DNA from: Bilabrum cf. latius
Taxonomy: Eukaryota
Reading direction: 5' to 3'
Assembly (NCBI GenBank): GCA_965178125.1
Contig: OZ237769.1
Location: forward strand, 186,001-250,000
Length of the DNA: 64,000 bases
Positions 5,748 through 39,900 of the stretch are shown here, one piece after another (within the stretch, counting starts at the first letter, position 1; each line of letters opens with the position of its first letter). The translations under genes were made by a program, and so were the position numbers. The notes below the pieces were generated by a model. It saw only the letters and a list, made by a program, of their open reading frames with translations. It did not search any database and was not told the DNA's origin.

Positions 5748-6497
5748 TCAATAACCACCCCTGCCTCGGCCCCGACCCCCGCGCCCCCTACCCCCACCTC
5801 CGCCTCTATACCCCCCACCACCGCCCCGGTAACCCCCCCGGAATCCCCCCCCACCGCCCCTGCCCCTCCCCCTCCCACGTGGTGCCCCCCTGCCCCTACC
5901 CCTCCCCCTGCCTCGTCCTCGGGGAACAACATACCCACCCCCCATGGCACCGCCCGGTGGACCTCCTCTCCCTCGACCCCTTGGAGCGCCAAACCCCCCG
6001 CCGCGGCCCCGCCCTCTTCCGCCTCGAAAGGAGCCGACGTCGGTACCGCCAGCCGCTCCGCCGCCCGCTGCAACACGCTTGCGGGCCACCTGAATGGCTC
6101 GCGATTTCAAGAAGGTCTCGTTGAGTACGGTAGCATTCTAGGCACTATCTTCGTCCGCAAATTCAACGTATGCCTAGCCTCTGGGTTTTCGTGTAAACCT
6201 ATCATAGAGAATCGTGATTCGGGTAATTGTACCAGCGGAAGCAAAGTGGCTTCGGATATCCTCTTCCGAGGCGTTAAAGTCAACATTATTTACATATACC
6301 GATCTAGCATCAGCAGCGGCTTGCTCCTTCCTGGCAGCCTCTACTGCATCCGAATAATCCTTTGCGAGCCGGATGCCATCCTGAGCGGCCGTCCTGGCGT
6401 CGTCAAACTATTTTGATATATCACTATCAAGCGCTTCAAGCGCAGAAATATCAACATCCAAACTGACTAGCGCATCTGCCAAGCTCGACGAAGCCAT
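5748..6497 (-). CDS. PABPN1: Nuclear poly(A)-binding protein (PABPN1/PABP2): RRM plus RGG tail
   Basis: ADARSVYVNNVDFNASEEDIRSHFASAGTITRITILYDRFTRKPRG*AYVEFADEDSA*NATVLNETFLKSRAIQVARKR matches the PABPN1 RRM. In-frame TAGs at 6408, 6174 and 6138, an RG-rich C-terminus, and TGA at 5748. Confidence 0.9.
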
Positions 6498-10050: not shown

Positions 10051-13048
10051 ATGTCGGTCAACTACAGTGATCTCAGTCGTGCCGTCACCGACGATGACAA
10101 GGTGCCCCCTGGCTACATATACAATGATATTGCAAGTGAGGCTGAGACGCGGCCTGCCTTTTGCGTTTGCTCGTCCTGCGCTTAGCTGCGCGAGGGCATC
10201 TGCGTGCTAATTATTTAATACAATGAACGCCGGGAATCAAGCTAGGGGCAAGTGCGATCCAGTGTTGAGTTTTATCCAGCCGCACCGTCATCGCAGAAGC
10301 GACGCACGCGAGCATCACAAACTGCAAGCCTCTTGCGGATTGGCTTGGGCGAAACCTTGGTAACTCTAGCCCGAACGTTAAGCGAAAGACGCTGATCGTG
10401 ATTCGATAGGTATCTCGAGGTGGCTCGCAGGAGTTCAGGCGGTGCATGCAGAAATGGCGTGACACCATCAAGAAGGAAACCGGTAAGTCCCTGAGCTGCA
10501 TACCTCTAGAAAAATACCATACTACTACTAATTAAACTTATGAGACGGCCCAACACCAGCTGTGCGCACAGCCCTCCTCGTGTGCGGCCGTTCCTGACTT
10601 GCAGCCCGTGCTTTGCTGGTCGCCCACACACCCTTCCATGAATGTATCCCCCTTCGCATCCTCTTGAATTGCGCAGAATTCCGCGGCAAGATGCATCCTC
10701 TGAAAGGCGACGCCCCCAACCGAGCCGTGCGGGATGCGGCCACTGGCGCCCTGCAGGCCATCTTCAGCGCGGGGCAGACAGCTTCCTCGGGGATGGCGGG
10801 GCGGATCGGGGGCCACGGGGGGTCGGGGGGGGCGGGGTCTAGTTCCGGGATGGGGGGGCGGTCCGGAGGGGGCGCGGCAGCGGGAGCCAGGGGCGGCGCG
10901 GGGCCGTATGCGGGCGGCTCCTCGGTGCCTCCTTCCATGCTTCACGAGGCGCCCATCAGCACAGGGACCATGGGCGGGGTGGGTTCGGGCCCTGCCAGGA
11001 AGGGCGGGGCCGGTGGGGGCATCTTTGGGGCGATCGCGGGGGCGTTTGCGACCAAGCCGGGGGCCCCGCAGCCCAACGGTGGGGGCGGAATCCGGAGGCA
11101 GCCCCCCAGGAGGGGGGGTGGCGGTGTCCCCGTAGCGGGGGGTGGCGGGGTCAGGGTACCCACGTACGGTGCGGGGAGCCCCCGACAGACGGGACCCCGC
11201 CTCGACGCCTTTGGGAGGCCCATCGGCGGGGGAACAACGGGCGGCGGATCGTCGGCCTTCGGGGGGTAGAGCCGCGGGGGAACAACGGGGGGTGGGGCCT
11301 TCGGGGGGGCGGTGGCGGCGCCCGGCCGCGGGCCCGCCTCCTCCCCGGTGCGCTCGTCACACACAGGCACCGGCCGGGCGGGGTCAGCCGTCTCGGGGGG
11401 CACGTACGAGAGGGGTCTGATTGCCGACCTGACGGCTGCCGGGGGCGTCCGGGGGCGGCTGGACCCATCCAAGCTGCAGAGCTTCCTGTCGGCTGCCAAG
11501 GGACTCTCCGCCGAAGTGGTTGCAACCGCGATCGACGATCGGCTGCAAGAGGAGAACCTGCAGGTGGTGGGCAAAGCGCTCGCCCTCCTTGAGCAGGTGG
11601 GCAAAGCCGGCAGCTCGGACCCCGCCCTCGCTCCTCTGAGGCAGCACCTCGCCGATCACTGCGATGAGGTGCTGGAGCTCCTAGAAAACCCGCCGAAGCC
11701 CGCCATCAAGCGGGCGGCCACAAAGGCGCTGGTGGCACTAGGCGTGGAGGAGGCGCTGCAGCACGCTGCACCCGCGCCCGCACCGGTTCCTGCGCCCGCA
11801 CCGTCTCAAGCACCTGCACCAGCGCCGGCCACAACGCCGGCCCCGGCCCCCGCTCCAGCCCCAGTGGAGGAGGAGGAGGATGAGGTGGATCTGTTCGGCG
11901 AGCCGACCCCGGCGCCGGCCCAGGTGGCTGGGGCAGCGACCGCCAACCCCGCCGCTGGCGACGATGATGGCGACGATATGTTCGGCGGGATGGAGCCGGT
12001 GTCTGCCGCTCCTGCTGCTGTGTCCGCCCCGGCGCCCGCCCCCAGTGGGTTCGCGTTCGGTGGGGGTGCACCGGCACCCGCCCCTGCACCTGCGCCATCG
12101 ACAGGCGGATTTTCGTTCATGGGGGGAGGTGGTGGTGCCCCCGCAGCCCCGGTGGCTGCACCTGCACCTGCACCCGCGCCGGTGACGTCGCACGCGCGGA
12201 GCGGTTCCGGTATCTCCTCGGGGATCGGATCAGGGATCGGATCAGGGGTGTCCAGCGGAAGCGGAGTGGCACCGTCCGCTGGAGGTGCATCCAACGGTTT
12301 CGGTTTCGCCGAAGCACCTGCGCCGTCCCAGGCCCCGGCTCCGGGTCCTTCTGCCGAAGAAGAGGACTTCTTCGGCTCGCTTTCCGCGCCTGCTCCTGCC
12401 CCTGCCCCTGCCCCGGTACCCGCCCCCGCCCCTGCCCCATCAAAGGCCCTCGATCTCAACGCCCTCTACAAGCAGAGCGCGCAGGGGCCCGGGCTGGGCG
12501 GGGTGGGTGGCGCGCCCGTGGCACCGGGGGCGGGGGGCGGCATGGGGTTCGGAATCGCTCCTGGGGCGCCGCAGGGGATGCAGCAGCAGCAGCCTGCTGG
12601 CCAAACTGGGCCTGGCATGGGTGGCATGGGAGGCGGGTTCGGTGGTGGGATGGGCATGGGAGGGGGCATGGGGGGGGGCATGCAGTCCACTGCGCCTGCA
12701 CCTGCTCCCACCGCCCCTAGCATGCCTTGGATGCAGTAGGGGCAGGCATAGGCACAGCCCCAGCCACAGGCCCAGTCCGGTGGGTTTGGGTTCATGGGCG
12801 CGCCTGCCCCCGCGCCTGCCCCCGCTCCGGCTGCGCCAGCGATGCCCTGGATGCAGCAGCAGCAGCAGCAGCCGCAGAGCGGCATGCCGAGCGCGATTTT
12901 GGGGAACTCTGGGCCCATGGCGGGCGGTGGGTCCGGGGGATTGACGAGTGCAGTTGGCATGCCGGGGATGGGACAGGGGCAGTCGGCTGGGCAGCAGCCG
13001 GCCTCGCCCAAGCCAGATCCCATGGACTTGCTGGACGCGGGCTTCTGA
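10051..13048 (+). CDS. TEPSIN: Tepsin (AP-4 accessory protein; ENTH plus VHS-like domain, Pro/Ala/Gly-rich tail)
   Basis: Exons are 10051-10135, 10297-10482 and 10677-13048, joined by GT-AG introns. Motifs: AVTDDDKVPPGYIYNDIA, VKRKTLIVIR*V, EFRGKMHPLKGDAPNRAVRDAA and YERGLIADLTAAGGVR. In-frame TAGs at 10407, 11267, 12737 and 12749. Ends in TGA. Confidence 0.85.
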
Positions 13049-13237: not shown

Positions 13238-15368
13238 ATGAACGGCTATGAGGTCGAGAAGGTGATAGGTGATGGGGCCTTTGGTACTGTTTATAGATGC
13301 ATCGACAAGAAGTCGGGCGAGCGAGTTGCTGTGAAGAAAATTAAGCAAAAATACAGCAGCTGGCATGAGGCCCTTGCACTCAAGGAAGTAGCAGCTCTGC
13401 GGTCCCTCCCAAAATTTAGGTACTTAGTTAGGCTTAAGAAATTAATCATGGAGAATAATATCCTGTATTTCGTCTTTGAATACGCGGAATCGAACTTGAT
13501 AGCGGTGAGATATGTCTGGGGATGCGAAGGACTGCTTCCCATCGAGACAAGTAACGGATGCGCTCGAATACGCCCTGCACTAGCCGAAGCTTTGATTGGA
13601 TGAGAGTCGGTGTAGCAAGAGCTCGGGCCGAGGGTCCTTGGAAAGTTGCACCACCCGTTGGCTGTCTGCAGTGCCACATCGGTGGACCTCTTCCGATGCC
13701 CGCTTTCCACTCCCGCAGTTATTAGAATCGGTCGCATCGTCAGCACCGGCAACTCTCGCTTCCCCGGGTGCGGGTGGAAGCAGCATGGCTGGCTCCCGTC
13801 GGATGCACTCCTCGCTCGCTCCCAGCGGCCTCCCCCACGCCGTGGTGCGCAGGATAGGGTACCAGGTCATCGCTGCGCTTGCCCACATGCATCTGAATGG
13901 ATACTTTCATAGGGACGTTAAGCCCGATAACGTGCTCATCCGCAGGCGAGCAACTGCTCGGGCGAGCAGAGCAGCCGAAGCCATGGCCTCCGTGGGTGGC
14001 TCCAGCGGAACCGGGACCGCCAGCAGCGCCGCGCAGTAGGATGTTCCGCTAGAGCAGGTGCACTGCCTGCTGGCGGACCTGGGCCAGGCACGGGAGACCC
14101 GCTCAAGGCCCCCCTACACGCACTACGTCGCGACCAGGTGGTACCGGGCCCCTGAGATCATCCTGCGAGCGACCATCTACAACAGCCCCTGCGACATGTT
14201 TGCCGCCGGCTGCCTCATCGCCGAGCTGCACAACGGAAGGCCCTTGTTCTCTGGCAAGAGCGAGACGGACCAGATGCACCTCTACGTCAACGCGCTGGGC
14301 TCCATCACGCCGGCCTCGTGGCCAGAGGGGGCCCGCCGGGTCAAGGAACTCGGAGCCAGATTGCCGCAGGGCATAGCCGGAAGTGGGATCGGATCGTTGT
14401 GCCCTGGCATGCCGGAGGAGGGGCAGGCCCTCGTCGGCGCCCTGCTGGCTCTGAACCCGCAGAAGCGGATGAGCGCTGCGCAGGCACTGGACCACGGCTA
14501 CTTTGCGACCAACAGGGCCGAGGAACAAGAGTTGAGGGCCAGGGAACAACGGGAGGGGGGAAGCGGGTCACCATCGAGCATGGACGGGCGCTCGCCGACC
14601 GCCATCACCGGCCTTGACGCTGGTGGGGGAACAGCCGCGGCGGGCGGAGCCAGGGCGGGGACATCCGCGGCGACAGGGACAGGGGCAGGGACAGGGACAG
14701 CGAGGGCAGGGGCAGGGGCTTAGTATCAGCACCATGCCAGGGCAGGCAGCGAGGTACCGGGGGGGTCAGGGGGGGCGGGCGGGGGTAGTCGGGGCTTCGC
14801 GGCGTTCGCAGCTCAATCGTCACACGCCCGCAGCAGCAGCACCCCAGTGGGCGGTGGCAGCAGGCCGGGTGCATCGCACGGTGGTGCCAAGGACCACGAG
14901 ATGGACGCGCTGAACGACCTGCTAGCCGAGGCCCAGGCCATGGTGACCGAGTCAGAGTCGAGGCCGGCAGGGGCAGGGGCCGGCGCTGGACACGGATCGG
15001 GGTCCGGGGTGGGGAGCGGTGTGACGAGTGCGATGGGGGACCCGATTCTGACACCGGCGGCAGACTCGCCCCGGGGTGCGAGCCGGGCTGTTGGTGCTGT
15101 AGGTGTGACGAGTGGTGGGGCCTCGCGGGCAGCGGCGGCTGCGGCGGGACAGGGAACCCCCAGCGGTGTGACGAGTGCAAATCGAGGCGCGGAGTCCCCC
15201 GGAGACACCCCACTGTCTCCTCTGGGTGGTTCTGGCTCCGGGTCCTTCCGGCTGGGGGACTCGCTGGGCGATTTGGACGCGTTGCTTGCTCAGGTGAAGG
15301 GCAAAGGCAGCGGGGTGGCGGGGCCGGGCGCAGGCAGCAGCGGTCAGGGCCAGGCAGGCGTGTCCTGA
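13238..15368 (+). CDS. MAK/ICK (RCK family) Ser/Thr kinase with low-complexity insertions and tail
   Basis: Exon 1 is 13238-13504 (IGDGAFGTVY, VAVKK), with a probable intron at 13505-13718. Then come HRDVKPDN, LADLGQARETRSRPPYTHYVATRWYRAPE (TxY loop) and DMFAAGC. In-frame TAGs at 14037 and 14721, TGA at 15366-15368. Confidence 0.88.
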
Positions 15369-15541: not shown

Positions 15542-17725
15542 TCATTTAGTCACCTGCAGAGCCACAAACTCGGGGGTATACCCGTCACTCGTCACAATGC
15601 AGCTGCGAGTGCACGTGAACACGGCGAGGCAGTCGAAATCGATCGTGTCCCGCAACCGGCGCGACTTCACTGCTGCCTCCAGGATCTGCATCCTTCCTCT
15701 GGATCCAACCGCCTTCCCCTTCTCCTTCCTGCCGCCTGTCGCATCCCTCTGGCTCCCAGCCGGCCCCAGGCCACCATCCCCGGGTGCTTCTTCCCCACCA
15801 GACCCGGTTGCAACCGCGCTCCCACTACTCCCCCCAGTTGCAACCACCAGTGAGCTCTCCTCCGGCAGCAGGTGTGCGAGCATCTGGGGCATGACCTGAA
15901 ACTCGAACCGGCGGGGGGCGCCGCACCTCGGGCATGGGGGTGCGTACGATCGCGAGGATGAAGATGAAGATGAAGATGAAGATGAAGATGAAGATGAAGA
16001 TGAAGATGAAGATGGGGCTGACGTCGATGATCCAGCAGCACCTGCGCCATCGTGCGATGCACCCGACGAGGCTCCGGTGCTAGCGAGAGGAAGCAGCGCG
16101 CTGCTGGCATGGAAAGAGCCACCGGGGGCGGGGTCGCCCTCCAGCGCGACTGCTTCAAACGGGGGGGCTCCCGGGTTCGATCCCCATAGCACGTCCTCAT
16201 CGTTCCACCTCGAGTATCTGAGCACCTGCTCGGGGGCAGCTGCCGCCCTCATGCTCATCTTGCGGCTGTGGGCATCACCCGCAAGTGACCCGCCCGTGGC
16301 TGCCGAGAGTTCCGCCTGAGTCAGGCGTGCTACCCCTGACTCATCCTTGATGTCCACGGCCACCTCACCTGACCCACTGGCTGCTACCGATCCGCCGGTT
16401 TGACCACCCCCTCCCCTCTGTCTCCATGCCTCCAGCCGCTCTTGTTCCCCGGGCTCCTCCTCCACCACCAGGTCCATAGGGAGGAAGCACGCGCCCGCGG
16501 TTGCAACCACCGAGGGATCCACCGCAGGGAGTCGGAAAGCCGTCAGGGCACCGCTCTGTTCCTCAGGACCACTCGTCACACCATCGGATGGGATCAGGCT
16601 CCGGATGGATCCGCCGGCGCACAGTGCCGCAGCCTGCCGCATCAGCGCCAGACCACTCCCAGCATGGCTTGTCCCTTCCCCTGATGCCGCCGAGCGTTCC
16701 CCTCCTGGACTCGGAGTCAATAATGAGGCGCCCTGCTTGCCCCTTGCGACCAACAGGCGCACGACGTCCTGCAGTAGCGTGTCTCCAAGCGCGGCGCCGG
16801 CTAGCGGAACCGATTCCGAGACCATTGCCTCCTCACCTTCGCCCGTGCCACCGTGCGATGCACCCAGCACCCGCCTCAGCTCTCCAGAGGCCTCCTTTCC
16901 CAGAGAGGCCTCCAGTGCCTCGATGGACACCGGGGAGGACTTGCAGCCTGTCGGCAGCCCCGTGAGGCAGCAGAGCCGATCGGAGTTGCAGCTCTTGCGC
17001 GCATCGGGGGACTCAGAGGCCGCTGCCGATTCTGGGCTGGGTTCCGGTGACTATGTGCTTGAAGTCCCGAGCAAGTGGATCGGATGGGAGGATGGGTCCA
17101 TGGCCTGGAGTGCGGCCTCTTCCTCCTGCTCGCTCATGGGCCGCGCCACTGCTGCTGCTGCTGCTGCTGCTGGTGATTGCGATGGGGGAACTGGCGACGC
17201 AGGGTCGGATAGTGCTGCACCTGATGATGTTATTGCTAGTTTGCAGTCGCCTCTCTGCGGCAAGTACTTGTTCTGCTTCGGAAGCTAGCACCGTAGGGCG
17301 AGCACACCGGCTCCGCTGCGAAGGCACCTGCCCTGCGTGCAGCAAAACACGTACAGCATCCGGTGAAACGCTTCACTATGGCCAGCCTCTCGTGATGTGA
17401 GGGGTGCATACAGCTAACACATCATGGGCATGGGCCGATTGCACCCGGGACATTCCATCTGCTTCGAAGACGGCAGCATTTCAGGGTTGAGCCAGAACGG
17501 CCTGCCGCCAATCTGCCCGCCATCCCAATCGCTCCAGCCGATGCCGGCAGACTCGAACATCGGCAGCTGTGAATAGCTCTCGCTGGAAACGCTTGCGTCC
17601 TCTGCATCACTCTCTGCCGCTGCACCGCCTAAGGGTTCGGCAAAGCCAAGCTAGACGCTTCGACCTCTCCAAAACGTGTCAAGGACGTCATCGTCGCCTT
17701 CATCGGCACAAAAAGCCTTTGACAT
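15542..17725 (-). CDS. PDCD2: PDCD2/TSR4-like protein (uS5 chaperone family)
   Basis: One frame from ATG 17725 reads V*LGFAEP, GQIGGRPFWL, CPGCNRPMPMMC*LYAPL, AFHRMLYVFCC, LRC*LPKQNKY, PEQVLRYSRW, PPCPRCGAPRRFEFQVMPQML and IDFDCLAVFTCTRSC. TAGs at 17651, 17414, 17285 and 17051, TGA at 15542. Confidence 0.92.
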
Positions 17726-18043
17726 AATACACAAACAAATAGAGACGAATGTATGAACAGCTATTGATGCCGCCTTGCTGCTGCCCTTGGTGTGCCCTTG
17801 CCCACTGGCAGTGTGATGACTGCACACGGCCCGGGGATGGTGGTCACCACGGTGCGCTTGTTTTTCAGCTTGCGTGCTATGCTGGCTTGCAGCTTCGGGC
17901 AATGGAGCGCATGGAAGCAGACGACATACGTGTGTATTCACCACTGCCCCCTGTACAAACCCCATGCAGCCGTCAATAAAGTTCCAAACACCTCGCCCCC
18001 CCCGCCTCGATCCCAACATGATCGCAGCGAAAGGTGAATCGGC

Positions 18044-19138
18044 TCACCCGACCACTCCATCGGTGGTTCCCTCGCTCCCCGCCAGTGCCACCGAGTTGTA
18101 GTGCTCCCCAAGAGCGTAGTACTCGCGGTGGAATGCAAGAAGCAGAGGCCGGGCCCCGGCCCCAGCACTGCAACCGGCCGTATCCACCCCATGGTCGCCA
18201 CCCCCTTCCCCACTCGTAACACCCGTGGCAGCAGCACCTCCAGAAGCAGCCGCGTCCCGCTTCGCATTGAAAGCAGATGCCGCCTTCTCTGCCCCAGGAC
18301 CCACCCCGTACGCATTCCCTTCCGCCTGCACCACCACGATCGGTTTCCCCAGAGCATCTGCTGCCGCCCTCACCTCCGGCTCGCCGCCCCACACAGCGGT
18401 GCTCGCCAAACGGTCGCAGTATCGAGCAAGTGCTCCGGCGGGGTCGGACTCAAACCGGTCTTCGTCTTCGTATGGCAAAAATGGCCCGAATTCGGCCCCG
18501 CGCGCCCTGATGTGTTCCGCAACCATCGTTCGGATGTCCTTGTGGCCGGGGACGGCTTCGCTGGCCGATGCTCGGCTTCGCTTCAGCTGGTGCTCGATGG
18601 AGCGAAACAAGCAATTCCCGTCAGCCGGCACGTCAAATACTGCGAGTCCAAGAGGCTCGAGTTTCTTGTTGATGGCCGCGATCTCTGTCACGCGAGGATC
18701 CACGGTGTTCGCCTTCTCCTCGGCGATCGCAGCTCGTATCGCCTCTTCCTTTGCCTTCTTTCTGTCTCGTCTTGCCTTTGCTCTCGACTTCTTAGATGCT
18801 CCTCCATCATCATCGGGAGTTGCAGCGGCTTCGGCACCGGGGTCAGCTCTACTAGCGGGACCAGTGGGTACATCTGCGGCCGGCGAACTGGTCCCAGCTC
18901 CAGGTTCATCGCCCCCCGCGAGCTAGGATTCCAAGTAAGCAATTTCAGCAGCGTGGCGTTCCTTCATGTCAGATTCTAGCTTAGCAGCTTGCGCTTTAGC
19001 TTCTTTCTTTGGTATCTTCTTGTTCTTGAGCAAAGCCTTCCCTTCCTGCTAGCATTTCTTCAGCTCCATTTTGTGCCTGTGCTTCATCTTTCCCAGCGTT
19101 TCTCCATCGGGAATAGAAAGATCTCCAACTGATGCCAT
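18044..19138 (-). CDS. OTU deubiquitinase, OTUD6B/OTU2-like
   Basis: N-terminal MKHRHKMELKKC*QEG...ERHAAE coiled region. OTU motifs DVPADGNCLFRSI, WGGEPEVRAAA and YHxxY-like FHREYYALGEHYNSV. TAGs at 19049 and 18923, TGA at 18044. Confidence 0.9.
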
Positions 19139-19961
19139 GATAACTTATACTTTTGCGCTTCACTAGTGAACAACTGGCGTTTTTGTTAGATGCTGGCTGC
19201 TTGTGAGAAAGAGATCCAATCTTGCTGCACCAATCATTCCATGACGGCCACCAAAATCTGCAAAGTGATATAGGCTGCTTTTCACGCGCTCACGCTAATC
19301 AATCGTCACCACACTAACACGTGCAGCACCGCCAACCCGCGCTGTATGCAGCGCATCCACATGGACAAGGCAGCGGGCACTACCAGTACACAGCGGAACC
19401 ACTGCGGCAGAAAGCAAGCAGTCCATGACAGCCGTCTCATTCATTTGTCACACGCTGGTATCTGCACCCCAGTGTACCCTCGCAAGGAAATCGGTACGCG
19501 CACACGCTTGCATCGCGGAAGAAGCCACCCCCCCCCACCCCCCCCCACCCCACCCCACCCCACCCCACTGCACTGGCATGTGCCGATGGGTCTCAAGCAA
19601 GCGCCTAATGGGTGATGGACACTCCCGCTCCAACTCCCCGCTGGCTCAGTTTTTCACCCTGACCCCCCTCATACGGACCGGTGGGGGAAGGGGGGGTCCT
19701 AGTACAGATGGGGCTGCATTCGTGTAGACCCAAGCAGTGCCGTTGGGTCGGCCAACAGACTCATGGGGAACAAGTGGGGGCCGTACGACACACGAAGGCA
19801 ATGGATCTCATGCACCTGCTGGCCATGCCTTCCCAGTCGTCGTGTGCCACCCATCCACCCACTGACTGGCAAAGGCTGTCCTTCCTATCGCAGGGTGCCA
19901 TTCCAGCACGATCTCAAAATCCATCCACTCTCTGGCCAGATCCCAAAATCCATCCGCTCTC

Positions 19962-20853
19962 TCAGTGGCCACCGGTGGCAGCCGCACCTCCCTTTGCCTT
20001 GCCTTTGCCCTTGGCTGCCGCAGCCGCCGCCTTGTCGGGTGCAGCCATGCCTGCCAGGTGCTTGTACGTCTCCTGTTTGACCCACTCTCGGGGGAAGGGG
20101 TCGTACTTGCACGAGTCGGGGTCCAGACTGCGGCAGGGGAGGGGAGGGGGTGGTAGGCAAGTGTCATCATCCATTGCGGGGATGCGTTGGCTGGCTGGTT
20201 GGCTGGCTGGTTTGTTTGAGGCACACACAGACGAGCAAGGCATGGGCCTGGGAGGGGGGAGGGAGGCCCGCGTGATGCAGCGCGGTTCGACAGGGTGTGC
20301 CCCCTCTGGCAGCCGTGATATCACAGCAGCGGGCCGGCGGCAACGCCTATTTACTCACAGCAAGATGCAGATATCACCAAGAGAGTCGATGTAGGTGAAC
20401 AGGTCTTTGATCGTGTAGTCAATCTTCTCGATGTCGGGGTTCAGCTCTCTCAGCCGGCGCTCGTACAGAGCAATGATGCCATCCAGAGCCAGGTCAAGGC
20501 GCTCGAAGTCGTGGTAAATCCTCGTTTCGGGCTTGCCCGGGACAATTTGCGTGAGGACAATCGTGTGTCGATCCATTGGAGAGCGACCGTCCATGGCTAC
20601 TTGTGGGCCGGCCCCACCGCCGGACTTGGCTGCGCCAGCGCCACGACCACCACCACGCCTAGAGTCCTGCAATTTCAGGTCAAGTACGGGATTTGGTCCA
20701 CTTGAATAAATATACAAGGCTGGACAGCTCTTCAAGACGTTGTATTGTACAGCTGTAGGCTAGCCGTGAACCTACAAACAAGGACGCCTCAATGATTTCC
20801 CACCGCGAAAACCAGATGCAACAAAGTTATGTTAGGAACAGTTTGCTTACCAT
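19962..20853 (-). CDS. ERH: Enhancer of rudimentary homolog
   Basis: HTIVLTQ...TRIYHDFE...DGIIALYERRLRELNP...IDYTIKDLFTYIDSLGDICIL, then an intron (~20358-20128, GTGAG...CGCAG), then LDPDSCKYDPFPREWVKQETY, TGA at 19962. The 5' end is uncertain: an ATG|GTAAG micro-exon at 20853, or the ATG at 20594. Confidence 0.9.
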
Positions 20854-21016
20854 AGTGCGTTGCTCGGTCTGTCCAGAGAATGGCTGCCACGGTTGGGATT
20901 GTTGCAAAATCAGTGTTTCGGTGTAAGTACAGTGCCATTTACGATAGGCGTGCTCGCCGCCGCTACGCCGCCGCTCTCCTCAGGGAAACAAAACAGAGTT
21001 TCGCAGAATAATTTAC

Positions 21017-24013
21017 ATGAACTCCACGGCGTCGTCGGGGACGTACGGCGCAGATGAGTTCCTGAAGCAGCCACGATTCGGCCAGACATTGACTCATGGG
21101 GCCCCAACAGCAACTGCCGAGCGCAAGGAAGGATGGCTGCGCAAAAAGGCTCTTTCTTCCAGAGAGAAAATGCGATGGGCCACTCGATGGATGGTCCTTC
21201 ATGGAAAGTTCCTGTCGTATTCCAAGCGAAAGGAAGAAGCGGGCAGTCCTATATCCACGCTCGTCCTGGACACCACATCCACGGTGCAACCCACAGAAGA
21301 GCACGCCTCCAGCGGCTACCGACATGAGTTCGTCATCGAATCTTCTGAGTTTGTATTGTATGCGTGCGCGGAAAGCACGGCTGAGCGAGACGACTGGGTG
21401 CGATCCGTGCAGCAGGTGCTCGACCGCCTCACGCGCCACATCCGCCTGGAGCAGCAGGACCGAACGAGGCGATTCGAGAAACAGAAGATGGAAGACGAAA
21501 TTCGATTTAAACAGGAGCAGGAAAAGCTAGAGGAGGACCTTAAGGCGTCCCAGAAAGCCAGGCTTGACATATCGAGCCGGATGGAGCAGCGCAAGAGCGT
21601 CATTCTCAAACGGGAGCAGCTGGCAGCAAAAAGCAAGGCATTGCTGCAGCAACAGAATCCCCAGGCTGGCCCACCACCTGCTTCCGGCCCTGAATCGGCC
21701 GATAGACCCGGCAAGAGCACTGCGGGAGCATCCGAACAACCCGCGGATGCGAGCGAGCAAGCAAGTGCGCCGCAAGGACCGCTCAGCACGTTCGTCTGGG
21801 GCACAGACGATGAGGGACAGGCCGCCAACGGCACCGATTTCCGGGGAACCATCAAATCGCCGCAGCAGGTCCGGATGCTTAGGGGCGCCCGTGCCGCCGC
21901 GCAAATCTGCGCCGGTTCCACACACGTGGCTGCGGTGTGTCCGGGGGGCGAAGTCCTTACCTGGGGCACGGGTTAGGAGGGTCAGCTGGGCGGGGGGCGG
22001 GCCCTTCTTCAGGCAAGCAGGCCGTTCATTGTTCCCTGGTTCAGAGATGTGCCCGCCAGCCAGGTGGCGTGCGGCGGCTCGCACACTCTTGTGCTAGCCA
22101 GAGACGGCAGGGTCTTTGCGTTCGGCTGCAACGAGTAGGGTCAGCTGGGGCTAGGGCACGGGTCAGGCGCCGCGCACTGGGCCCCTGCGGAGGTGAAGGC
22201 GTTGCGACCAGCAGATAGCGACGATGCATGTGACGAGGGATCCAAGGAACAAGAGGACAGCGTTGAGGGCCAGGCAGGAGGCAGCAGCAGCAGCAGCAGC
22301 AGTAGCAGTAGCAGCAGCAGCAGCAGGGGATAGGGTACGAGCAATGCTAGCAGTGCTAGCAGTGGCAGTGGCGCAGGTGAGGGTGCAGGTGAGGGCCGTG
22401 CTGGGCCCACCGTCCCGAGAGGTCGCATCACCTGCGTGCGAGCGGGACACGAGACCTCTGCCTGTGTGACGAGTGAGGGGGAGCTCTGGCTCTGGGGCGC
22501 CACGGGGAGGGGGCGGCTGGGCACCGGGCCCGCCTCGGCAGCGGTGGACTCGGAGCCGATTTGGGAGCCCACGCGTGCCGAAGATGTCTGCCAGGGCGCG
22601 GCAGGCGAGATGAAGACCTAGTCTGCCTCTCAGTGTGACGAGTGCGGTTTGTTCGGCCGCGGCAGCGGGCGCGTGCTGGACGTGTCGCTGGGGGCGTGCT
22701 ACACGCTGGTGCTGCAGCAGCTCGATCGAGAAGATAACGAGAAGGAGGCTACGGATCCAGCGGGGACTGACGAACCTTCGGCTAGGTTCGCTCGAGTGCT
22801 GGTGGCTGGTGCCCTTGGAGCCAGCTCTTCTTCGTTTCACCCTTCGAGCCACTGCCTTTGGAGGGAACTGCCGCTGCCAAGGGAAGGAGCCGAGGCCCAA
22901 AGGGGGACTCAACCGGGGGCAGCACAGGAAGGGGAATCACAGGAAGGGGCAAGCCAAGGTGCCGGCGACAGCTCAACACGCTCTGGGCCATCGGCGCGCT
23001 GCATCGCCGCTGGGCCCGACATGGCCGTGGTGGTAGCAACGGATGGGCGGTGCTTTGTGGCGGGGAGGGGGGTTCTCCCGGTGGCTGCAGCGAGTGAGCT
23101 CCTGGGTTCGAGTCCGAGCACTACCAGCGAAAGTATGAAAAGGGCTTCCAGGGTCACCGGCTTCGAATCGCTGGTGGAAATCCCCGACGCAGTCGGCCAC
23201 GGCGTGACGAGTGCATCGGTTGGCACGGATCACGGCATGCTGCTTTGCGGAGGGAACGCTGGGCAACTGCTGGCTTTCGGTCGCAACAGCTCGGGGTAGC
23301 TTGGTGCGAGCCAGTGGGGCAGGCGGGCGGAGGGTCTGCTGGTGGAGGTGGATGGGCCACGGGAGCAAAAGGGCGCGGGCTTCGTGGAAGTAGCGTGTGG
23401 TTCTGGTTTTACTGTGGGTCTCTGTGCCGCCGGTTTGACCAGGGGATCGGGCGCGGGTGGTATTTCCGGAGAGGCTGGGGAGGGGCCGATCGTCGATGCG
23501 GGGGTCATCGGTGGTGTGACGAGTGCTCGGGGAGCCACGCTGGAGGCTCTGCGCCAGCACGAGCAAGAGACGTTGGTGGGGATATCGCGGGGAACAGCTC
23601 AGGGACAACAAGCCTCCACGGGAGAGTCCGCTGGGCCACCGCACGACGAGCCCACCATTGGCATGGTGGGGTCAGCCCCCCCGCCGCCACCTCAGCTTGA
23701 TATCAAAGCGGCAGCTCCAGCGGTGCATGCATCGGCCTCTCCATCGGAAGCCACCGGTGCCGGTGCTGGGCAGATGGAGCAATCTGGGTCAGGCCCCGGG
23801 GACCCTCTCGCACCGGTCGGCTCGGGGGAAGTGGCAACGGCAGCGGCAGTTGGAGGAAGGGATCATGTGGATGCGGATTCCGGAGCGAACGGCGTGGATG
23901 ATGACGAGTATGATGACGAAGACTCAGACTCTCTCCCGTCCGACGATGAGCTGCCGTCTGATGCCATCAGTGATGACGAGGAAGAGGAGGAATAGGAGGA
24001 CGATGACCGATGA
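21017..24013 (+). CDS. PH-domain plus RCC1-repeat protein with an acidic tail
   Basis: PH domain (KEGWLRKK...WATRWMVL...ERDDWVRSV), a coiled coil, then RCC1 repeats (VACGGSHTL, FGCNE*GQLG, FGRNSSG*LG, VACGSGFTV). A single frame passes TAGs at 21974, 22136, 22331, 22619, 23297 and 23993 to TGA at 24011-24013. Confidence 0.88.
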
Positions 24014-27428: not shown

Positions 27429-29165
27429 ATGTCTAGCCTTGTAAGTTCGTACTGTGCCATGCAATATGTTGTGCTCTAAGTAACGCGCGTTCACGTTTTG
27501 ATTTAGTGACTGAAACTGCCATGGTAGATGGATTACTGGCTGGGGAATACGAAGATGCAAAGAGCTGTGGGCTGGTTCTGTAGAGCCCAACCCGAGCATC
27601 GACAACCAAATCTAAATCAAAGCATGATTTATTTATAAATACTGCGCAGAAGCTGTACGCGTTCCAGGGTGACTTCCACGCGCTCAAGTGCCGGATCGCG
27701 GCCCAGTACAATGGCATCGCCGTGGACATGCCCAAGTTCGACCGCTCCAAGGACGCCACCGCCAAGTGGTTCCTTGAGAAGAACCCCCTGGGAAAGACCC
27801 CGCTCCTCGACACCCCCGACGGTAAGATGAAAGCCACCGGAACTCGCACCGAGAAAAGTCGCGCGCGCTCGGTTCTCAGCACCAAACGGGCGCAGTGAAT
27901 CCCGATGCGTGCATCTGTACCCATACCAGCACTTTCTTTCTTTTCTTTACGTCACATACCATAATGTCGCAGGGGCTGTGTTCGAGTCGAACGCCATCGC
28001 TCGGTACATCGCGCGCATGCGCAGCGACACTGAGCTCATGGGCCGGTCCTTCTTCGAGCGTGCCCTGGTGGACTCGTGGATGGACTTCGCGCAGCAGGAG
28101 CTGGAGGTGGCCGTCACCCAGTGGATCTACCCCATCCAGGGGTACCTCGAGTACTCTGCCGACGCCGAGGAGCAGGCCGAGGAGGACGTGGCCGAGGCTC
28201 TGTCCGTCCTTAACGCGCACCTCAAGTACCGCACCTTTTTGGTGGGCGACGCCGTCACCCTGGCCGACATCTGCGTCGTGTCTGCCCTCCTGTACCCCAT
28301 GAAGTTCGTGCTCACGGAGAAGGTCCGCGCCGAGTACCCCCACGTGATGCGCTGGTTCCTCACGTGCGTGAACCAGCCCGAGGTGGCCTCGGTGGTGGGC
28401 GACGTGCCCCTGTGCGCCGAGCGCATGTTCGCCCCCGGTGCTTCCGCCAAGGGCGGCAAGGGCAAGGGTAAGGGCAAGGGCGGCAAGGGCAAGGGCGGCG
28501 GCAAGCAGCAGCAGCAGCAGGGCGGCAAGGGCAAGGGCAAGGGTGGCGGGAAGGGAGGCAAGGCCAAGGCCGCTGCCCCCGCCCCGGCCCCGGCCCCAGA
28601 GAAGCCCGTGGACCCCTTCGCGGGCGTGGGCAAGTCTAACCTGAACATGGAGGTGTTCAAGCGCATGGTGGCCAATGCCCCCAACAACCTGATCCGGGCC
28701 AAGGACCCCGAGGACTCCGACGATGAGGACGAGTACAAGCGCGATTACGCCGCGGTGATGCCCAAGTTCTTCGCGGAGATGTACGACCACACCAAGGACT
28801 CGGTGTGGATCATCAAGTACAAGCACCAGCACGAGAACACGGTCGATTTCATGACGTCCAACCTGGTGCGCGGCCTCACGCAGCGCGCCGAGGGCGCCCG
28901 CAAGTACTGCTTCGGCGTGTTCCACATCCTCAAGCAGCCCCAGGGAGACGACAAGTTCATCTTCCCGATCGTGGGCGCCGTCGTGCTCCGCGGCACTTCC
29001 TTCGACCCCTTCCGCGAGGTCTCGGTGGACATCGCCGAGTACGACGTGGAGCGGATCGACCCCGCCGACGAGGCCGCCAAGGCGCGCTTCGTGACCATCT
29101 TCGGCGGCCAGGCCGGGGACCAGGTGGAGGGTCTCGAGTCCATGGACTGCAAGTGGCTCAAGTGA
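27429..29165 (+). CDS. EEF1G: Elongation factor 1B-gamma (GST-like N-terminal domain plus EF1G C-terminal domain)
   Basis: Exons are 27429-27440 (MSSL|GTAAGT), 27650-27821 (KLYAFQG...KNPLGKTPLLDTPDG) and 27973-29165 (AVFESNAIARY, RTFLVGDAVTLADI, YPHVMRWFLTCVNQP, FMTSNLVRG, RKYCFG). Ends in TGA. Confidence 0.95.
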
Positions 29166-29440: not shown

Positions 29441-31351
29441 TTAAGACCCCTTGAATCCCTTGCCAGGCACAAACGCGGGCGCATCCACGGAAAGCTTGAA
29501 ACCGCTGCTCGCGCCTTTCGCCCGCGCAGCCGCTCCCCCCGTGTGCGCCTGCGACGCGCCCCCGCCTGCCAGTGCTCCCGCGCGCGCAGCCGCACCCCCG
29601 GTTGTGCCCTAGGCCCGGGCTGCAGCGCCACCAGTGTGGGCCGCAGCCACAGGGGCAGGGGCATCAGAAGCAGAGGCAGAGGCATACGAAGCAGAGGCCG
29701 CGGGACCTGCACCTGCACCGGCAGCAGGCGCAGGAGCCGGGGCAGAGGCCCCCGCCGCTGCCCTCCCACTCCCGCTCGTCACACCCTTGATCCCCCGACC
29801 CCGATCGGCTCCGAGTCCGAGTCCAGGCAGGCCCAGTGCCGCAGCAGGGAGGGAGGCGTGCCTGCCCAGTGCGAAGGAGGAGGCCCCCTCCAGCCCTGGG
29901 CCAGACCCAGCCACCGCCTCGGTCCGGTAGAATCCATCCGGGGCGAAGGGACCCCGTCTGCAGAGGCACACCTGTTCCAGGGAACAAGTACCACCCCCAA
30001 GTGGCGCTGCCCCGCCGCCACCCTCGGCGTTGTAGTGGGCAAGCAGCGGACGAGCGTCTACTGGCAGCCGCGCCGCCATGGACCCGAAGTCGCCGCCACT
30101 TTGACCACCCCCCGAGCCCTTCCCCATGCCCCGGCCCCGCCCCGACCGCCGCAGCCGCGTGTTGATCACGGTGGCGTGCAGCTTGGGGCTGAGGCGCCCG
30201 TCGGACCCCCGCAGCCGCTGCCTCTCTGCCTCGTCCTCCTCCACCACACCGGCCTCGTGCAGAGCCTCGTACAGCACAGAAAATGCCTCGCGCACCGCCC
30301 CCGTGCCGCCGCCCACGGAGCTCGAGCTGGTACTGGCCCCACCTCGAGCCTGCTGGCCACCCGACTGCCCGGTGCGACTTTGACCGCCCCCCGAAGTGGG
30401 GGGCAGCTGGTCGCTCGCCTTGAGGTACAGCACGTGCGTCTCGGACGGGTCGTCGTTCATGTGTTCGAGCCCCTGCAGCCTGACCCTATGCGATCGGAGC
30501 AGATGCCTCACTCGTTCTGCGACCGATCGGATTGCTCCGATCGCGGCTCTCAGTGCCTCAGGAGTGTAGATCCTCAGCATGAGCAGCGTCATGTGCAGCT
30601 GCCGAGGCGACACGAGCACGCTCTCCTCCAGCCCCTTTGCCGGCGCCCCAGATCCGGGGCCGAAGCGGGACAGCACGTCTGCTTGGAATTTCGCCACGCT
30701 CGGCGCTGCGGCACGCAGCGGGATGCACAGAAAGTGCGTGTAGTCGAGCCGGCTCGCCGTGTCGGCGGCGATGACCTCCAGCATCGTCTTGGCGCGCCGC
30801 ACTGCGGAACCGGTAGAGCCGCGCACAACCACTGAGAGGTCTCCCACGGCACCGCCGGAGCCCCCGTGCCCCCCATGGCGCCGTTTGGAGGCAACGTCCA
30901 GCAGGACAGCCGAGCCGAGCGATGGCTGGTGCCGCCGTCCGGCCCCTTTGCCGAGCCGAATCCCGATGGCTGCATCGATGACGCGATTGCTTGGAATCTT
31001 GATTTGTGTACGCGTATCCCGTTCGATTTCTTGCTTGCTTGCACCGCGCTTGCCCACGAGAAACTTGAACTGCTCCGGGGGAATGTGCACGCGAGAAATC
31101 CACTTGTCAGACCGGGAGCCTGCTCTCCCTTCCGGGACGATACCTTCAGCCTCCAAGTCTTCGATATCATCTTCCACGTCGCCGGACCCGACAGCTTCCC
31201 TATCGCTGCGCGATGCCCCCCACATTCCCGCCTCGTGAGAGTGCTCGGCACGGTCGGCCGACCTCGCAGCTGCAGCCAGCGGCAATTCGCCCTCCGCAAG
31301 GTGAGCCCTGCGCTTCCTGTATCGAATTCCCCCAACGTCAATCACGAGCAT
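29441..31351 (-). CDS. ASCC1: ASCC1-like protein (KH domain plus 2H-phosphoesterase/AKAP7-like domain) with a C-terminal PAM2-like motif
   Basis: KH domain: FKFLVGKRGASKQEIERDTRTQIKIP. Also YTHFLCIPL and the HxT motifs LHMTLLML and KLHATVINT. The frame reads through TAG 29609 to KLSVDAPAFVPG and ends at TAA 29441. Confidence 0.88.
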
Positions 31352-31557
31352 CTCGACGTAAACTAGTCTTGCGTCGCAATTGCGCGAATCCGATCGGACC
31401 GGAACGCTTCATCACTTACTGAAAATGGAACGTTCCAATCGGTTCGTTGCCGTACAATCAGCGAACTTTCCGGGACAGCTCGTCAATCCGTGCGGGGAAG
31501 GCACCCTAAATCATTCATATATCAAGACTACAAACTAGCACGAGCTAGTCTACAAGC

Positions 31558-39500: not shown

Positions 39501-39900
39501 ACTTAGCGAGCAAAGACTTTGTCAACTACTATACGCTAGCTGATGTAGATGAAAAAAGAGTCGATTTCTTCTGAGTATTCGAGTGATAACAGGACAAAGC
39601 TTCCAGCTTTGCCCACACAAGAGTGGCAGTTCCGGCATTCAAGTTGCGGCTGGCGCGATTGCCCAGGCGTCCAAAACCGGCCCACGCCCTCTAATACTCC
39701 AATTAATCCCACGACGCTTGCAGAGGCCGTACATTTGCTAAGAAACGGTGAGATGCCCTCCAAGAGTGTACGTTGTTCTACTCCTGTTTGCAGGAATCGA
39801 GGGGTGTCACACGTGGGCAGCCGGAGCAGCTGGGGTCCGATTCGAACGCAACGTTCAAAAATCATTCAAGCAGAAAGAAGAAAAGGAGAAACAATTCATG

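What the first reader, a model, noticed from the sequence alone, without database searches (positions are those of the whole stretch)
15542..24013. TAG is reassigned to a sense codon, most likely glutamine, in this nuclear genome
Seen in sequence: nearly every gene has in-frame TAGs, and the frame stays open and conserved beyond them. The most diagnostic sites are PDCD2 'MC*LYAPL' (17414; family motif L.Q.YAPL), PDCD2 'LRC*LPKQNKY' (17285; family motif R.QLP..N.FY), RCC1 'FGRNSSG*LG' (23297; GQLG) and PABPN1 'DSA*NA' (6138). TAGs also interrupt poly-CAG runs (32317, 44142-44173, ~56500-56540). Paralog comparisons agree: 'LAAI*KSL' (36121) matches 'LASVQKSL' in B, and 'NP*VSS' (41638) matches CAG in 'NPQAVSS' (53411). 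Inference: so many housekeeping genes cannot all be pseudogenes, so the code itself differs. The supplied standard-code ORF track is misleading throughout.
Basis: partly seen in the sequence, partly recalled or inferred. Interest (0 to 1): 0.96.

Follow-up and report, generated by a model that had tools for sequence, protein, structure and literature searches.

The report
TAG codon read as glutamine
In this GC-rich eukaryotic nuclear DNA the stop codon TAG sits inside conserved, expressed genes and is most likely read as glutamine, while TGA and probably TAA still end genes; this is a rare kind of genetic code.

Summary

- **Only TAG interrupts genes.** Homology-supported stretches of 8 cellular genes (3,489 codons) hold 14 in-frame TAG, 0 TAA and 0 TGA. 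Out of frame, TGA is three times as common as TAG.
- **The best sites point to Gln.** Two PDCD2 TAGs fall on near-invariant glutamine columns: Q in 146 of 151 and 129 of 135 homologs. An 87%-identical ortholog has Q at both.
- **TAG stays in the RNA.** Spliced contigs from three runs of two studies carry TAGs unedited and unspliced in OTU, PDCD2 and a kinase.
- **Other stops still work.** Eleven cellular genes end in TGA (10) or TAA (1).

- ABCE1, EF1G and ERH have no exonic TAG, and some "in-frame" TAGs are intronic or upstream of the start.
- One PABPN1 TAG lies where 9 of 9 homologs have Phe or Tyr.

This is the UAG=Gln, UAA=stop code type already described for Iotanema and some ciliates. 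Here it occurs in a 60% GC genome that terminates mainly with TGA. The lineage is unresolved. The decoding tRNA and eRF1 could not be examined.

The parts
15545..17725 (-). PDCD2 coding sequence (727 codons, no intron seen), ending in TGA at 15542-15544. In-frame TAG at 17651, 17414, 17285 and 17051.
   Evidence: Pfam PDCD2_C, E=2.4e-15. 958 homologs at E<=0.001. The TAGs at 17414 and 17285 lie on Gln columns, 146/151 and 129/135. An RNA contig covering 16025-17138 holds the TAG at 17051 with 0 differences.
18047..19138 (-). OTU2/OTUD6-like deubiquitinase gene, ending in TGA. In-frame TAG at 19049 and 18923, both upstream of the catalytic OTU domain.
   Evidence: Pfam OTU, E=8e-19. PDB yeast Otu2 8c83 aligns to residues 22-273, with the first TAG opposite Q and the second opposite K in a weakly conserved region. 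RNA contigs covering 17746-19155 (X5), 18276-19155 (X7) and 18431-19122 (X8) show 0 differences and no gap.
21017..24010 (+). PH + RCC1-repeat protein gene, ending in TGA at 24011. In-frame TAG at 21974, 22136, 22331, 22619, 23297 and 23993.
   Evidence: Pfam PH, RCC1 and WD40_RLD hits, all in one frame. PDB UVR8/RCC1 alignments place 21974 and 22136 at variable positions. 23297 lies at the Q of the G-Q-L-G motif, read from the sequence. The blade containing it gave no PDB hit on its own.
5751..6497 (-). PABPN1-like gene (RRM plus RGG tail), ending in TGA. In-frame TAG at 6408, 6174 and 6138.
   Evidence: Pfam RRM_1. In the PDB and homolog alignments, 6174 lies on the RNP1 aromatic column, F or Y in 9 of 9. 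6138 lies on a variable column: Q 1, E 3, D 2, R 2, K 1.
13596..15365 (+). Protein kinase gene, C-terminal exon (the N-terminal half of the kinase domain is not in this ORF), ending in TGA. In-frame TAG at 14037 and 14721.
   Evidence: Pfam Pkinase, profile positions 94-263. An RNA contig covering 13718-14631 holds the TAG at 14037 with 0 differences.
10676..13045 (+). Last exon of a low-complexity Gly/Ala/Pro/Gln-rich protein gene. TAG at 11267, 12737 and 12749; the last two lie in 'PWMQ-TAG-GQA-TAG-AQPQPQ'.
   Evidence: Spliced RNA joints 10135>10297 and 10481>10676 (GT..AG) in X5, X7 and X8. TAG contexts.
7107..9067 (+). ABCE1/RLI1 main exon with no TAG, ending in TGA. The intron 6761-7106 holds the only TAG of the long ORF.
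   Evidence: Pfam ABC_tran and Fer4. Joint 6760>7107 (GT..AG) in three runs. CAG 25, CAA 1, TAG 0.
27831..29162 (+). EF-1-gamma exon with no TAG, ending in TGA.
   Evidence: Pfam EF1G and GST_C. CAG 14, CAA 0, TAG 0.
29444..31408 (-). KH + AKAP7/2H-phosphoesterase (ASCC1-like) gene, ending in TAA at 29441-29443. One TAG at 29609 in the low-complexity tail.
   Evidence: Pfam AKAP7_NLS and KH_1. Terminal codon.
20359..20665 (-). ERH (enhancer of rudimentary) exon without TAG. The flanking introns are 20128-20358 and 20666-20849; the second holds the TAGs at 20760 and 20772.
   Evidence: Joints 20127>20359 and 20665>20850, CT..AC on the + strand and so GT..AG on the - strand. The ERH name comes from reading the translation and recall. 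This ORF was not sent to a family search.
39904..62213 (-). Four paralogous poly-Gln protein genes (39904-42666, 52283-54430, 55936-58332, 59838-62213). The last three form a 3.9-kb tandem array at 99% identity. Each carries 9-11 in-frame TAG, 7 of them at identical positions in all four, and several inside CAG runs.
   Evidence: Codon alignment, self-BLAST, dN/dS 0.41-0.48 downstream of the TAGs. 39904 ends in TAA where the other three end in TGA.
33433..39521 (-). Two more distant paralogs of the same N-terminal domain (33433-36414, 36909-39521). TAG at 36121 aligns with CAA.
   Evidence: dN/dS 0.22 over alignment columns 20-170.
45291..50825 (+). Decayed non-LTR retrotransposon, used as an internal control. 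It has a frame change between the endonuclease-like part and the reverse transcriptase, and an in-frame TGA at 48628-48630 inside the RT 'FFDIK-TGA-AFDS' motif.
   Evidence: Pfam RVT_1 on 48631-49527. Sequence read. The endonuclease label rests only on motifs read by eye.

Best explanation
The window is nuclear DNA of a GC-rich (about 60%) eukaryote with few introns. In it UAG is a sense codon read as glutamine. UGA is the main terminator and UAA probably a rarer one.

In-frame TAG makes up about 10% of glutamine codons in the ORFs examined (68 TAG against 614 CAG+CAA). It is absent from the most conserved and best-covered genes, ABCE1 and EF1G.

Inferred mechanism, by analogy with described UAG-only codes and not shown here: a tRNA-Gln with anticodon CUA, which pairs with UAG but not UAA, together with an eRF1 that has lost affinity for UAG.
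For: **Shown here**
1. In homology-supported coding spans of 8 genes (3,489 codons), the in-frame 'stops' are 14 TAG, 0 TAA and 0 TGA. Off frame the counts are 34, 17 and 101. No frame shift is needed to join the domain hits.
2. The PDCD2 TAGs at 17414 and 17285 align to columns with Q in 146 of 151 and 129 of 135 homologs. The query carried X at those sites during alignment.
3. P0003, an 87%-identical ortholog, has Q at both sites and the same C-terminus. It starts at the first Met after our upstream TAG.
4. Three RNA-like runs from two studies show GT..AG joints, so they hold spliced cDNA. Their contigs cover the TAGs at 19049, 18923, 17051 and 14037 with 0 differences and no joint. No 'other letters' row was reported over the 20 kb.
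5. In the paralogs, TAG is kept in all four copies at 7 columns. TAG lies against CAG at 41638 and inside poly-CAG runs, and against CAA at 36121. dN/dS is 0.41-0.48 downstream of the TAGs.
6. TAG's neighbouring codons are Gln 11% of the time. CAG scores 22.5% and CAA 7.5%; the 12 other codons tabulated score 2.8-7.4%.
7. Terminal codons of 11 cellular genes are 10 TGA and 1 TAA. One paralog ends in TAA exactly where three others have TGA.
8. The base after in-frame TAG shows no readthrough-type bias: G 20, C 19, T 13, A 10 of 62.
9. A decayed retroelement in the same window does carry an in-frame TGA and a frame change. Real decay here is therefore not TAG-only.

**From the literature**
- The CUA-anticodon argument and the eRF1 changes are described for Iotanema spirale (PMC5304391, section 9, read in full).
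Against: - One TAG (6174, PABPN1 RNP1 'RG-TAG-AYVEF') lies where 9 of 9 homologs have Phe (7) or Tyr (2). Gln there would be unusual.
- Only three TAG sites in the window fall on strongly Gln-conserved positions.
- A crude six-column log-odds score puts Q first (1.1), but Glu (0.12) is not far behind.
- One paralog column shows TAG against GAG. The RCC1 tail reads EEEEE-TAG-EDDDR.
- In the distant paralog pair, TAG aligns with AAA, GCA and CGG.
- The absence of in-frame TAA is weak evidence. TAA is rare at 60% GC. If TAA were Gln, only about 3 in-frame TAA would be expected (my estimate: 14 in-frame TAG scaled by the CAA:CAG ratio of 23:109).
- No tRNA gene lies in the window. No whole genome is held. 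The decoding tRNA and eRF1 are therefore unseen.
- The listed RNA pieces do not include the two most diagnostic PDCD2 TAGs (17414, 17285). Only bin depth is given there.
- Whether TAG ever terminates a gene cannot be excluded. The TAG at 23993 lies 5 codons before the TGA.
Confidence: 0.8

Rival explanations
1. Both UAG and UAA mean glutamine (the common UAR=Gln code, NCBI table 6). UGA would be the only stop, and TAA is simply too rare at 60% GC to show up in this window.
For: 10 of 11 cellular genes end in TGA. TAA is the rarest of the three triplets, 236 against 474 TAG and 833 TGA in the window. At most a handful of in-frame TAA would be expected in the 3,489 codons checked.
Against: There is no in-frame TAA in the 3,489 homology-supported codons. 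The paralog at 39904 ends in TAA at the exact codon where three paralogs have TGA, and the downstream sequence differs after it. The ASCC1-like ORF ends in TAA.
Confidence: 0.08
2. UAG is no longer recognised by the release factor, but it is decoded ambiguously by near-cognate tRNAs (mainly Gln, sometimes Tyr or Lys) rather than by a dedicated tRNA-Gln(CUA). TAG then persists mainly at tolerant sites and in weakly expressed genes.
For: One TAG sits on an invariant Phe/Tyr column. TAG is absent from ABCE1, EF1G and the ASCC1 core. That near-cognate tRNA-Gln reads stop codons in standard-code organisms is stated in the abstract of PMC13192750 (search listing only). That Tyr and Lys are also inserted at UAG is recalled, not from a call.
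Against: Two TAGs sit on near-invariant Gln columns of an essential-looking domain. About one Gln codon in ten is TAG, which is a heavy load for inefficient decoding. In I. spirale only 22 of 28 hyperconserved UAG positions were Gln, so a single discordant site is normal for a clean reassignment (PMC5304391, section 7).
Confidence: 0.06
3. UAG is a sense codon for another amino acid. Glutamate is the strongest alternative, as in some ciliates and Blastocrithidia.
For: TAG lies against GAG in one paralog column and sits in an acidic run (EEEEE-TAG-EDDD). Glu is the commonest residue at three weakly conserved columns (PABPN1 X30 and X120) and second at PDCD2 X25.
Against: Glu occurs in 2 of 151 and 0 of 135 homologs at the two hyperconserved PDCD2 columns, and the 87% relative has Q there. 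TAG sits inside pure CAG runs and lies against CAG or CAA in paralogs. Tyr, Leu, Ser and Lys score far lower.
Confidence: 0.03
4. The code is standard and the TAGs are not translated. They would be pseudogene lesions, assembly or base-calling errors, unannotated introns, or sites edited in the RNA.
For: Some TAGs of the naive ORF track really are intronic (ABCE1 codon 12; ERH 20760 and 20772) or upstream of the start.
Against: All 14 interruptions are TAG, with no TGA, TAA or frame shift. Contigs from independent runs of two further studies are identical across the TAGs, which rules out assembly error and editing at those sites. They are unspliced there although spliced elsewhere. Conserved motifs run straight through the TAG codon, as in MMC-x-LYAPL. 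A truly decayed element in the window shows a TGA and a frame change.
Confidence: 0.02

Closest known systems
Iotanema spirale (Fornicata) nuclear code: UAG=Gln, with UAA and UGA as stops (Panek et al. 2017, PMC5304391; abstract and sections 7 and 9 read)
   Same: UAG is the only reassigned stop and its meaning is glutamine. UAG is not needed as a terminator in any gene examined. Not every conserved UAG position is Gln; 22 of 28 were in I. spirale.
   Different: I. spirale terminates mostly with UAA (104 UAA against 15 UGA). Here it is 10 TGA against 1 TAA. This genome is 60% GC with LINE-like repeats. The ABCE1 search and quick tree showed no named fornicate among the listed hits, so there is no sign it is that lineage. 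The tRNA and eRF1 are unseen in both.
UAG=Gln (UAA retained) in two phyllopharyngean ciliate lineages and in Protocruzia tuzeti (McGowan et al. 2024, PMC11687900; passages read)
   Same: The same code table.
   Different: Those genomes have 27.4-53.6% GC, with UAA the most used stop and UGA the least used. Here GC is about 60% and TGA dominates. A 64-kb stretch with 160-350-nt GT-AG introns, retroelement relics and tandem gene arrays does not look like a ciliate macronucleus (inference).
UAR=Gln code (NCBI table 6: many ciliates, hexamitin diplomonads, some ulvophycean green algae, Amoeboaphelidium, Streblomastix)
   Same: Stop-to-glutamine reassignment of UAG. TAG is interchangeable with CAG and enriched in Gln-rich tracts.
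   Different: In-frame TAA was looked for and not found. TAA closes two ORFs.
Codes without a dedicated stop (Condylostoma, Parduczia, Blastocrithidia, Amoebophrya sp. ex Karlodinium)
   Same: In-frame standard stop codons occur in ordinary genes.
   Different: Here only TAG is in frame. TGA and TAA are absent from coding spans and mark gene ends. These papers were seen only as search listings.

Membership tests
UAG-only stop-to-Gln nuclear code (Iotanema type; formerly listed as NCBI table 15) | In-frame UAG in conserved protein-coding genes, present in the mature mRNA | tested here: met
   14 TAG in 3,489 homology-supported codons. Spliced RNA contigs cover four TAGs with 0 differences.
UAG-only stop-to-Gln nuclear code (Iotanema type; formerly listed as NCBI table 15) | UAG positions correspond to conserved glutamine in homologs | tested here: met
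   PDCD2 columns: Q in 146/151 and 129/135. Q in the 87% relative. A TAG at the GQLG motif Q. One discordant site at 6174 (F or Y in 9/9). Few informative columns overall.
UAG-only stop-to-Gln nuclear code (Iotanema type; formerly listed as NCBI table 15) | UAA and UGA remain terminators and are absent in frame | tested here: met
   0 in-frame TAA or TGA. 10 TGA and 1 TAA at the ends of 11 genes. TAA and TGA at the same codon among paralogs. For TAA the sample is small.
UAG-only stop-to-Gln nuclear code (Iotanema type; formerly listed as NCBI table 15) | UAG is not used as a terminator | tested here: inconclusive
   None of the 11 genes needs TAG as its stop. ORFs were defined with TAA and TGA as stops, however, and the TAG at 23993 lies 5 codons before the TGA.
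UAG-only stop-to-Gln nuclear code (Iotanema type; formerly listed as NCBI table 15) | A tRNA-Gln with anticodon CUA | not testable with these tools
   ARAGORN finds no tRNA and Rfam no RNA family in the window. No whole genome is held.
UAG-only stop-to-Gln nuclear code (Iotanema type; formerly listed as NCBI table 15) | eRF1 N-domain changes that weaken UAG recognition | not testable with these tools
UAR=Gln code (NCBI table 6) | In-frame UAA as well as UAG on Gln positions | tested here: not met
   0 in-frame TAA in 3,489 codons. Two ORFs end in TAA. Statistical power is low because TAA is rare.
Ambiguous codes with all three stops as sense codons | In-frame UGA (and UAA) in conserved genes | tested here: not met
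   0 in-frame TGA, although TGA is the commonest stop triplet off frame, 101 against 34 TAG.

The most novel reading that the evidence does not exclude
This would be an independent origin of the rare 'UAG=Gln, UAA=stop' code in a lineage that is neither a ciliate nor a fornicate. A weak single-gene signal places it near bicosoecid stramenopiles, and no paper reporting a stramenopile nuclear code change turned up in my searches.

It sits in a 60% GC genome that terminates almost only with UGA. At that GC content UAG would not have been a rare stop before the change, so this case would argue against simple codon capture.

The TAG on an invariant Phe/Tyr site leaves room for partly ambiguous decoding.
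Probability: 0.4. Interest if true: 0.82.

Novelty: new member of a known kind. Interest (0 to 1): 0.7.

Why it matters
- **Rarity.** Nuclear genetic-code changes are rare. Cases where UAG and UAA have different meanings are rarer still. The passages I read name Iotanema, a rhizarian (UAG=Leu), Scotinosphaera (UAG=Ser) and a few ciliate lineages (PMC11687900).
- **Annotation.** Standard-code gene calling will truncate or split a large share of this organism's genes. In this window PDCD2, OTU, RCC1/PH, PABPN1, the kinase and all the poly-Gln paralogs would be affected. The 87%-identical PDCD2 in the public protein set already looks N-terminally truncated at the position of our upstream TAG.
- **Evolution.** A GC-rich, UGA-terminating genome with UAG=Gln is an unusual background for this change. 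It would be a useful test of the codon-capture and ambiguous-intermediate models, and of how eRF1 can drop UAG while keeping UAA.

Tried and rejected
- No whole genome is held. A genome-wide column analysis and searches for tRNA-Gln(CUA), eRF1 and rDNA were therefore impossible.
- ARAGORN and Rfam found nothing in the window.
I dropped that protein from all further outside searches, so its three TAG sites stay unassessed.

**Searches that gave little**
- The first PDCD2 word-index search found 1 hit.
- The PABPN1 word-index search found only 5 hits and not the close relative.
- The metagenome scan with the relative's PDCD2 returned only 35-41%-identical loci, apart from one 25-residue fragment at 72%. 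It gave no DNA of a close relative.
- The RCC1 blade around 23297 alone gave no PDB hit.

**Organism identity**
- The Atlas search on ABCE1 gave only generic eukaryote clusters.
- ABCE1's best non-relative hits are only 53-66% identical.
- The ABCE1 tree is the quick version; the careful search did not finish. It puts the query plus relative on a 0.88 stem next to Cafeteria, with SH-aLRT 92. I treat this as a lead only.

**Sequencing runs**
- No listed holder is on record as RNA. The RNA nature of X5, X7 and X8 rests on their GT..AG joints.
- No listed RNA piece covers 17139-17745, where the two PDCD2 Gln-column TAGs lie, or most of RCC1.

**Literature**
- Searches found no paper describing UAG=Gln in a GC-rich or stramenopile lineage. 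The library misses most subscription journals.
- Supplementary files (the eRF1 alignment of PMC5304391, the per-species table of PMC11687900) were not seen.

**Readings rejected**
- TAG as a readthrough signal: there is no context bias after TAG.

Full report
**What the window is.**
- The 64 kb are about 60% GC and carry ordinary eukaryotic nuclear genes on both strands.
- Read with TAG as a residue, single open frames give clear family matches:
  - PDCD2 (15545-17725, -)
  - an OTU2-like deubiquitinase (18047-19138, -)
  - a PH + RCC1-repeat protein (21017-24010, +)
  - ABCE1 (7107-9067, +)
  - a protein kinase exon (13596-15365, +)
  - EF-1-gamma (27831-29162, +)
  - a KH + AKAP7-type ASCC1-like protein (29444-31408, -)
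  - a PABPN1-like RRM protein (5751-6497, -)
  - an LRR protein (1-1374, -)
- The right half holds a family of poly-Gln proteins and a decayed non-LTR retroelement.
- No tRNA or Rfam family lies in the window, and no whole genome is held.

**Checking the observation.**
- I restricted the count to stretches supported by a family or structure match. In 8 genes (3,489 codons) these hold 14 in-frame TAG, 0 TAA and 0 TGA.
- The two other frames of the same stretches hold 34 TAG, 17 TAA and 101 TGA.
- If the interruptions were random nonsense lesions, the chance that all 14 were TAG is about 8e-10.
- One caveat: I first picked frames that are open for TAA and TGA. Even so, the domain hits on either side of the TAGs lie in one frame with no shift, and no gene showed its domains split over frames.
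- The window also offers a control. The retroelement relic has a frame change and an in-frame TGA inside the reverse-transcriptase motif 'FFDIK-TGA-AFDS' (48628-48630). Real decay in this genome is therefore not TAG-only.

**Is TAG in the mRNA?**
- Runs X5, X7 and X8 (two studies, different organism labels from the best DNA holder) show GT..AG joints at 6760>7107, 10135>10297 and 10481>10676. They also show CT..AC joints, the minus-strand equivalent, at 20127>20359 and 20665>20850. They therefore contain spliced cDNA.
- Their contigs cover the whole OTU gene with 0 differences and no gap: 17746-19155, 18276-19155 and 18431-19122. That includes both TAGs.
- A contig covering 16025-17138 holds the PDCD2 TAG at 17051. 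A contig covering 13718-14631 holds the kinase TAG at 14037.
- No 'other letters' row was reported for the 20 kb laid. At these four sites, assembly error, RNA editing and splicing-out are excluded.
- The listed pieces do not include the two most diagnostic PDCD2 TAGs. Only a bin depth of 30 is reported there.
- The same joints show that some 'in-frame' TAGs of a naive ORF track are intronic: ABCE1 ORF codon 12, and ERH 20760 and 20772.

**Which amino acid?**
- *Method.* I searched the PDCD2 N-terminal domain against 1.84 billion representatives. This gave 958 hits at E<=0.001. I re-aligned the best 150, plus one hit already among them, to the query carrying X at the TAG sites.
- *PDCD2.*

| TAG site | Context | Homolog residues |
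|---|---|---|
| 17414 | MMC-x-LYAPL | Q 146 of 151 (H 3, E 2) |
| 17285 | LRC-x-LPKQN | Q 129 of 135 |
| 17651 | V-x-LGF | Q 6, E 4 of 14 aligned |

- *The close relative.* The best hit, P0003, is an 87%-identical ortholog from another source. It has Q at both conserved sites and ends at the same residue as ours. It begins at the first Met after our upstream TAG, which is what a standard-code gene caller would produce if that relative also had a TAG there. That last step is inference.
- *RCC1.* The TAG at 23297 lies at the Q of the repeat signature G-Q-L-G. In the UVR8 alignments the motif reads Q in most blades. TAGs at 21974 and 22136 are at variable positions.
- *OTU.* The TAGs align to Q and K of yeast Otu2 in a weakly conserved helix.
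- *Paralogs.*
  - TAG is kept in all four copies at 7 columns.
  - It lies against CAG at 41638 and within CAG runs, against CAA at 36121, and once each against GAG, GAC and AAT.
  - dN/dS is 0.41-0.48 both upstream and downstream of the TAGs.
- *Neighbouring codons.* TAG's neighbours are Gln 11% of the time, between CAA (7.5%) and CAG (22.5%). The 12 other codons tabulated score 2.8-7.4%.

**Evidence against Gln.**
- The TAG at 6174 in PABPN1 sits at the RNP1 aromatic position. Nine of nine homologs have Phe (7) or Tyr (2) there.
- A crude log-odds score over the six columns with at least four aligned residues ranks Q first (1.1) and E second (0.12). All other residues score below -3.5.
- Glu is made unlikely by the two PDCD2 columns (E in 2 of 286 cells), by the relative's Q, and by the poly-CAG context.
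- For comparison, in Iotanema spirale only 22 of 28 hyperconserved UAG positions were Gln (PMC5304391, section 7). One discordant site does not overturn the assignment, but it is recorded as unexplained.

**TAA and TGA.**
- Eleven cellular genes end in TGA (10) or TAA (1). Of the 19 long ORFs, 17 end in TGA and 2 in TAA.
- The paralog at 39904 ends in TAA at exactly the codon where its three relatives have TGA.
- No in-frame TAA was seen. TAA is rare at this GC content, however, and only about 3 would be expected if it were Gln (my estimate from the CAA:CAG ratio). 'TAG only' is therefore likely but not proven.
- The base after in-frame TAG shows no readthrough-type bias.
- TAG is absent from ABCE1, EF1G and the ASCC1-like core, which use CAG almost exclusively. 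That fits a minor, perhaps less efficient, Gln codon.

**Mechanism.**
- Shown: TAG is transcribed, retained and lies in constrained coding sequence. Its best-supported meaning is Gln.
- Inferred: a tRNA-Gln(CUA), the only anticodon that reads UAG but not UAA, plus an eRF1 with weakened UAG recognition. This is the argument made for I. spirale and the rhizarian exLh (PMC5304391, section 9).
- Neither component could be looked for here.

**Comparison with what is known.**
- The code table matches the UAG=Gln, UAA=stop variant described for I. spirale, for two phyllopharyngean ciliate lineages and for Protocruzia (PMC5304391; PMC11687900 passages).
- It differs in its genomic setting. Those organisms terminate mainly with UAA (I. 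spirale: 104 UAA against 15 UGA). Phyllopharyngean genomes have 27-54% GC, with UGA the least used stop.
- Here GC is about 60% and TGA is the terminator in 10 of 11 genes.

**Lineage.**
- It is unresolved.
- ABCE1 has one 88%-identical relative of unknown name. Otherwise identity is only 53-66%, with stramenopiles prominent among the named hits.
- A quick tree (the careful search did not finish) puts the pair on a long stem next to Cafeteria, with SH-aLRT 92. This is a lead, not a placement.
- Six literature searches found no description of such a code in a stramenopile or GC-rich lineage. The library lacks most subscription journals, and supplements were not seen.

**Verdict.**
The interpretation (TAG is sense, most likely Gln, in a nuclear genome) is supported.
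- Three corrections apply: not nearly every gene carries exonic TAGs, several cited sites are uninformative, and one site contradicts Gln.
- It is best filed as a new member of a known kind of code change. Whether the lineage is already described could not be settled with the tools at hand.

Noticed in passing
window 6174-6176 (- strand): The PABPN1-like RRM has a TAG codon at the RNP1 position, where 9 of 9 homologs carry Phe or Tyr (RG-TAG-AYVEF). Read as Gln, it would remove an RNA-stacking aromatic. This is unexplained.
   Followed up: partly
window 52620-64000, and 39904-42816: A tandem array with a 3.9-kb period and 99% identity, holding three copies of a poly-Gln protein gene, plus a 90%-identical fourth copy about 10 kb upstream. 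Two more distant paralogs lie at 33433-39521. The shared N-terminal domain (…KWLGEAILTGDPSQMPEIL…) has no Pfam match.
   Followed up: partly
window 45291-50825 (+): A non-LTR retrotransposon relic. It has an endonuclease-like part (GDFN and SDH motifs read by eye), then reverse transcriptase in another frame. An in-frame TGA at 48628 lies inside the RT motif.
   Followed up: partly
window 7107-9067 (+): ABCE1 is unusually divergent for this very conserved protein. Apart from one 88%-identical relative, the best listed hits are 53-66% identical. Read by eye, it also carries a Gly/Lys-rich insertion of roughly 60 residues between its two ATPase halves.
   Followed up: partly
window 5652-5663 (- strand): Four consecutive TAG triplets lie upstream of the likely signal-peptide start of the 3396-5252 ORF. 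This is probably 5' UTR.
   Followed up: no
window 43136-45442 (+): A long ORF with a poly-Gln run interrupted by three TAGs and a 'DGYCLIDSL' motif reminiscent of OTU-type cysteine proteases. It has no Pfam match.
   Followed up: no
window 15500-15545 and 15900-16010: Microsatellites lie next to and inside genes: a GATTC repeat directly after the PDCD2 stop, and a long poly-Ser run inside PDCD2. Long low-complexity insertions are typical of the proteins here.
   Followed up: no
runs X5-X8: The same sequence, with 0 differences, turns up in runs filed under four different coded organism labels. One is a low-depth DNA run. This suggests the organism travels with other organisms' samples or cultures. 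I did not pursue this.
   Followed up: no
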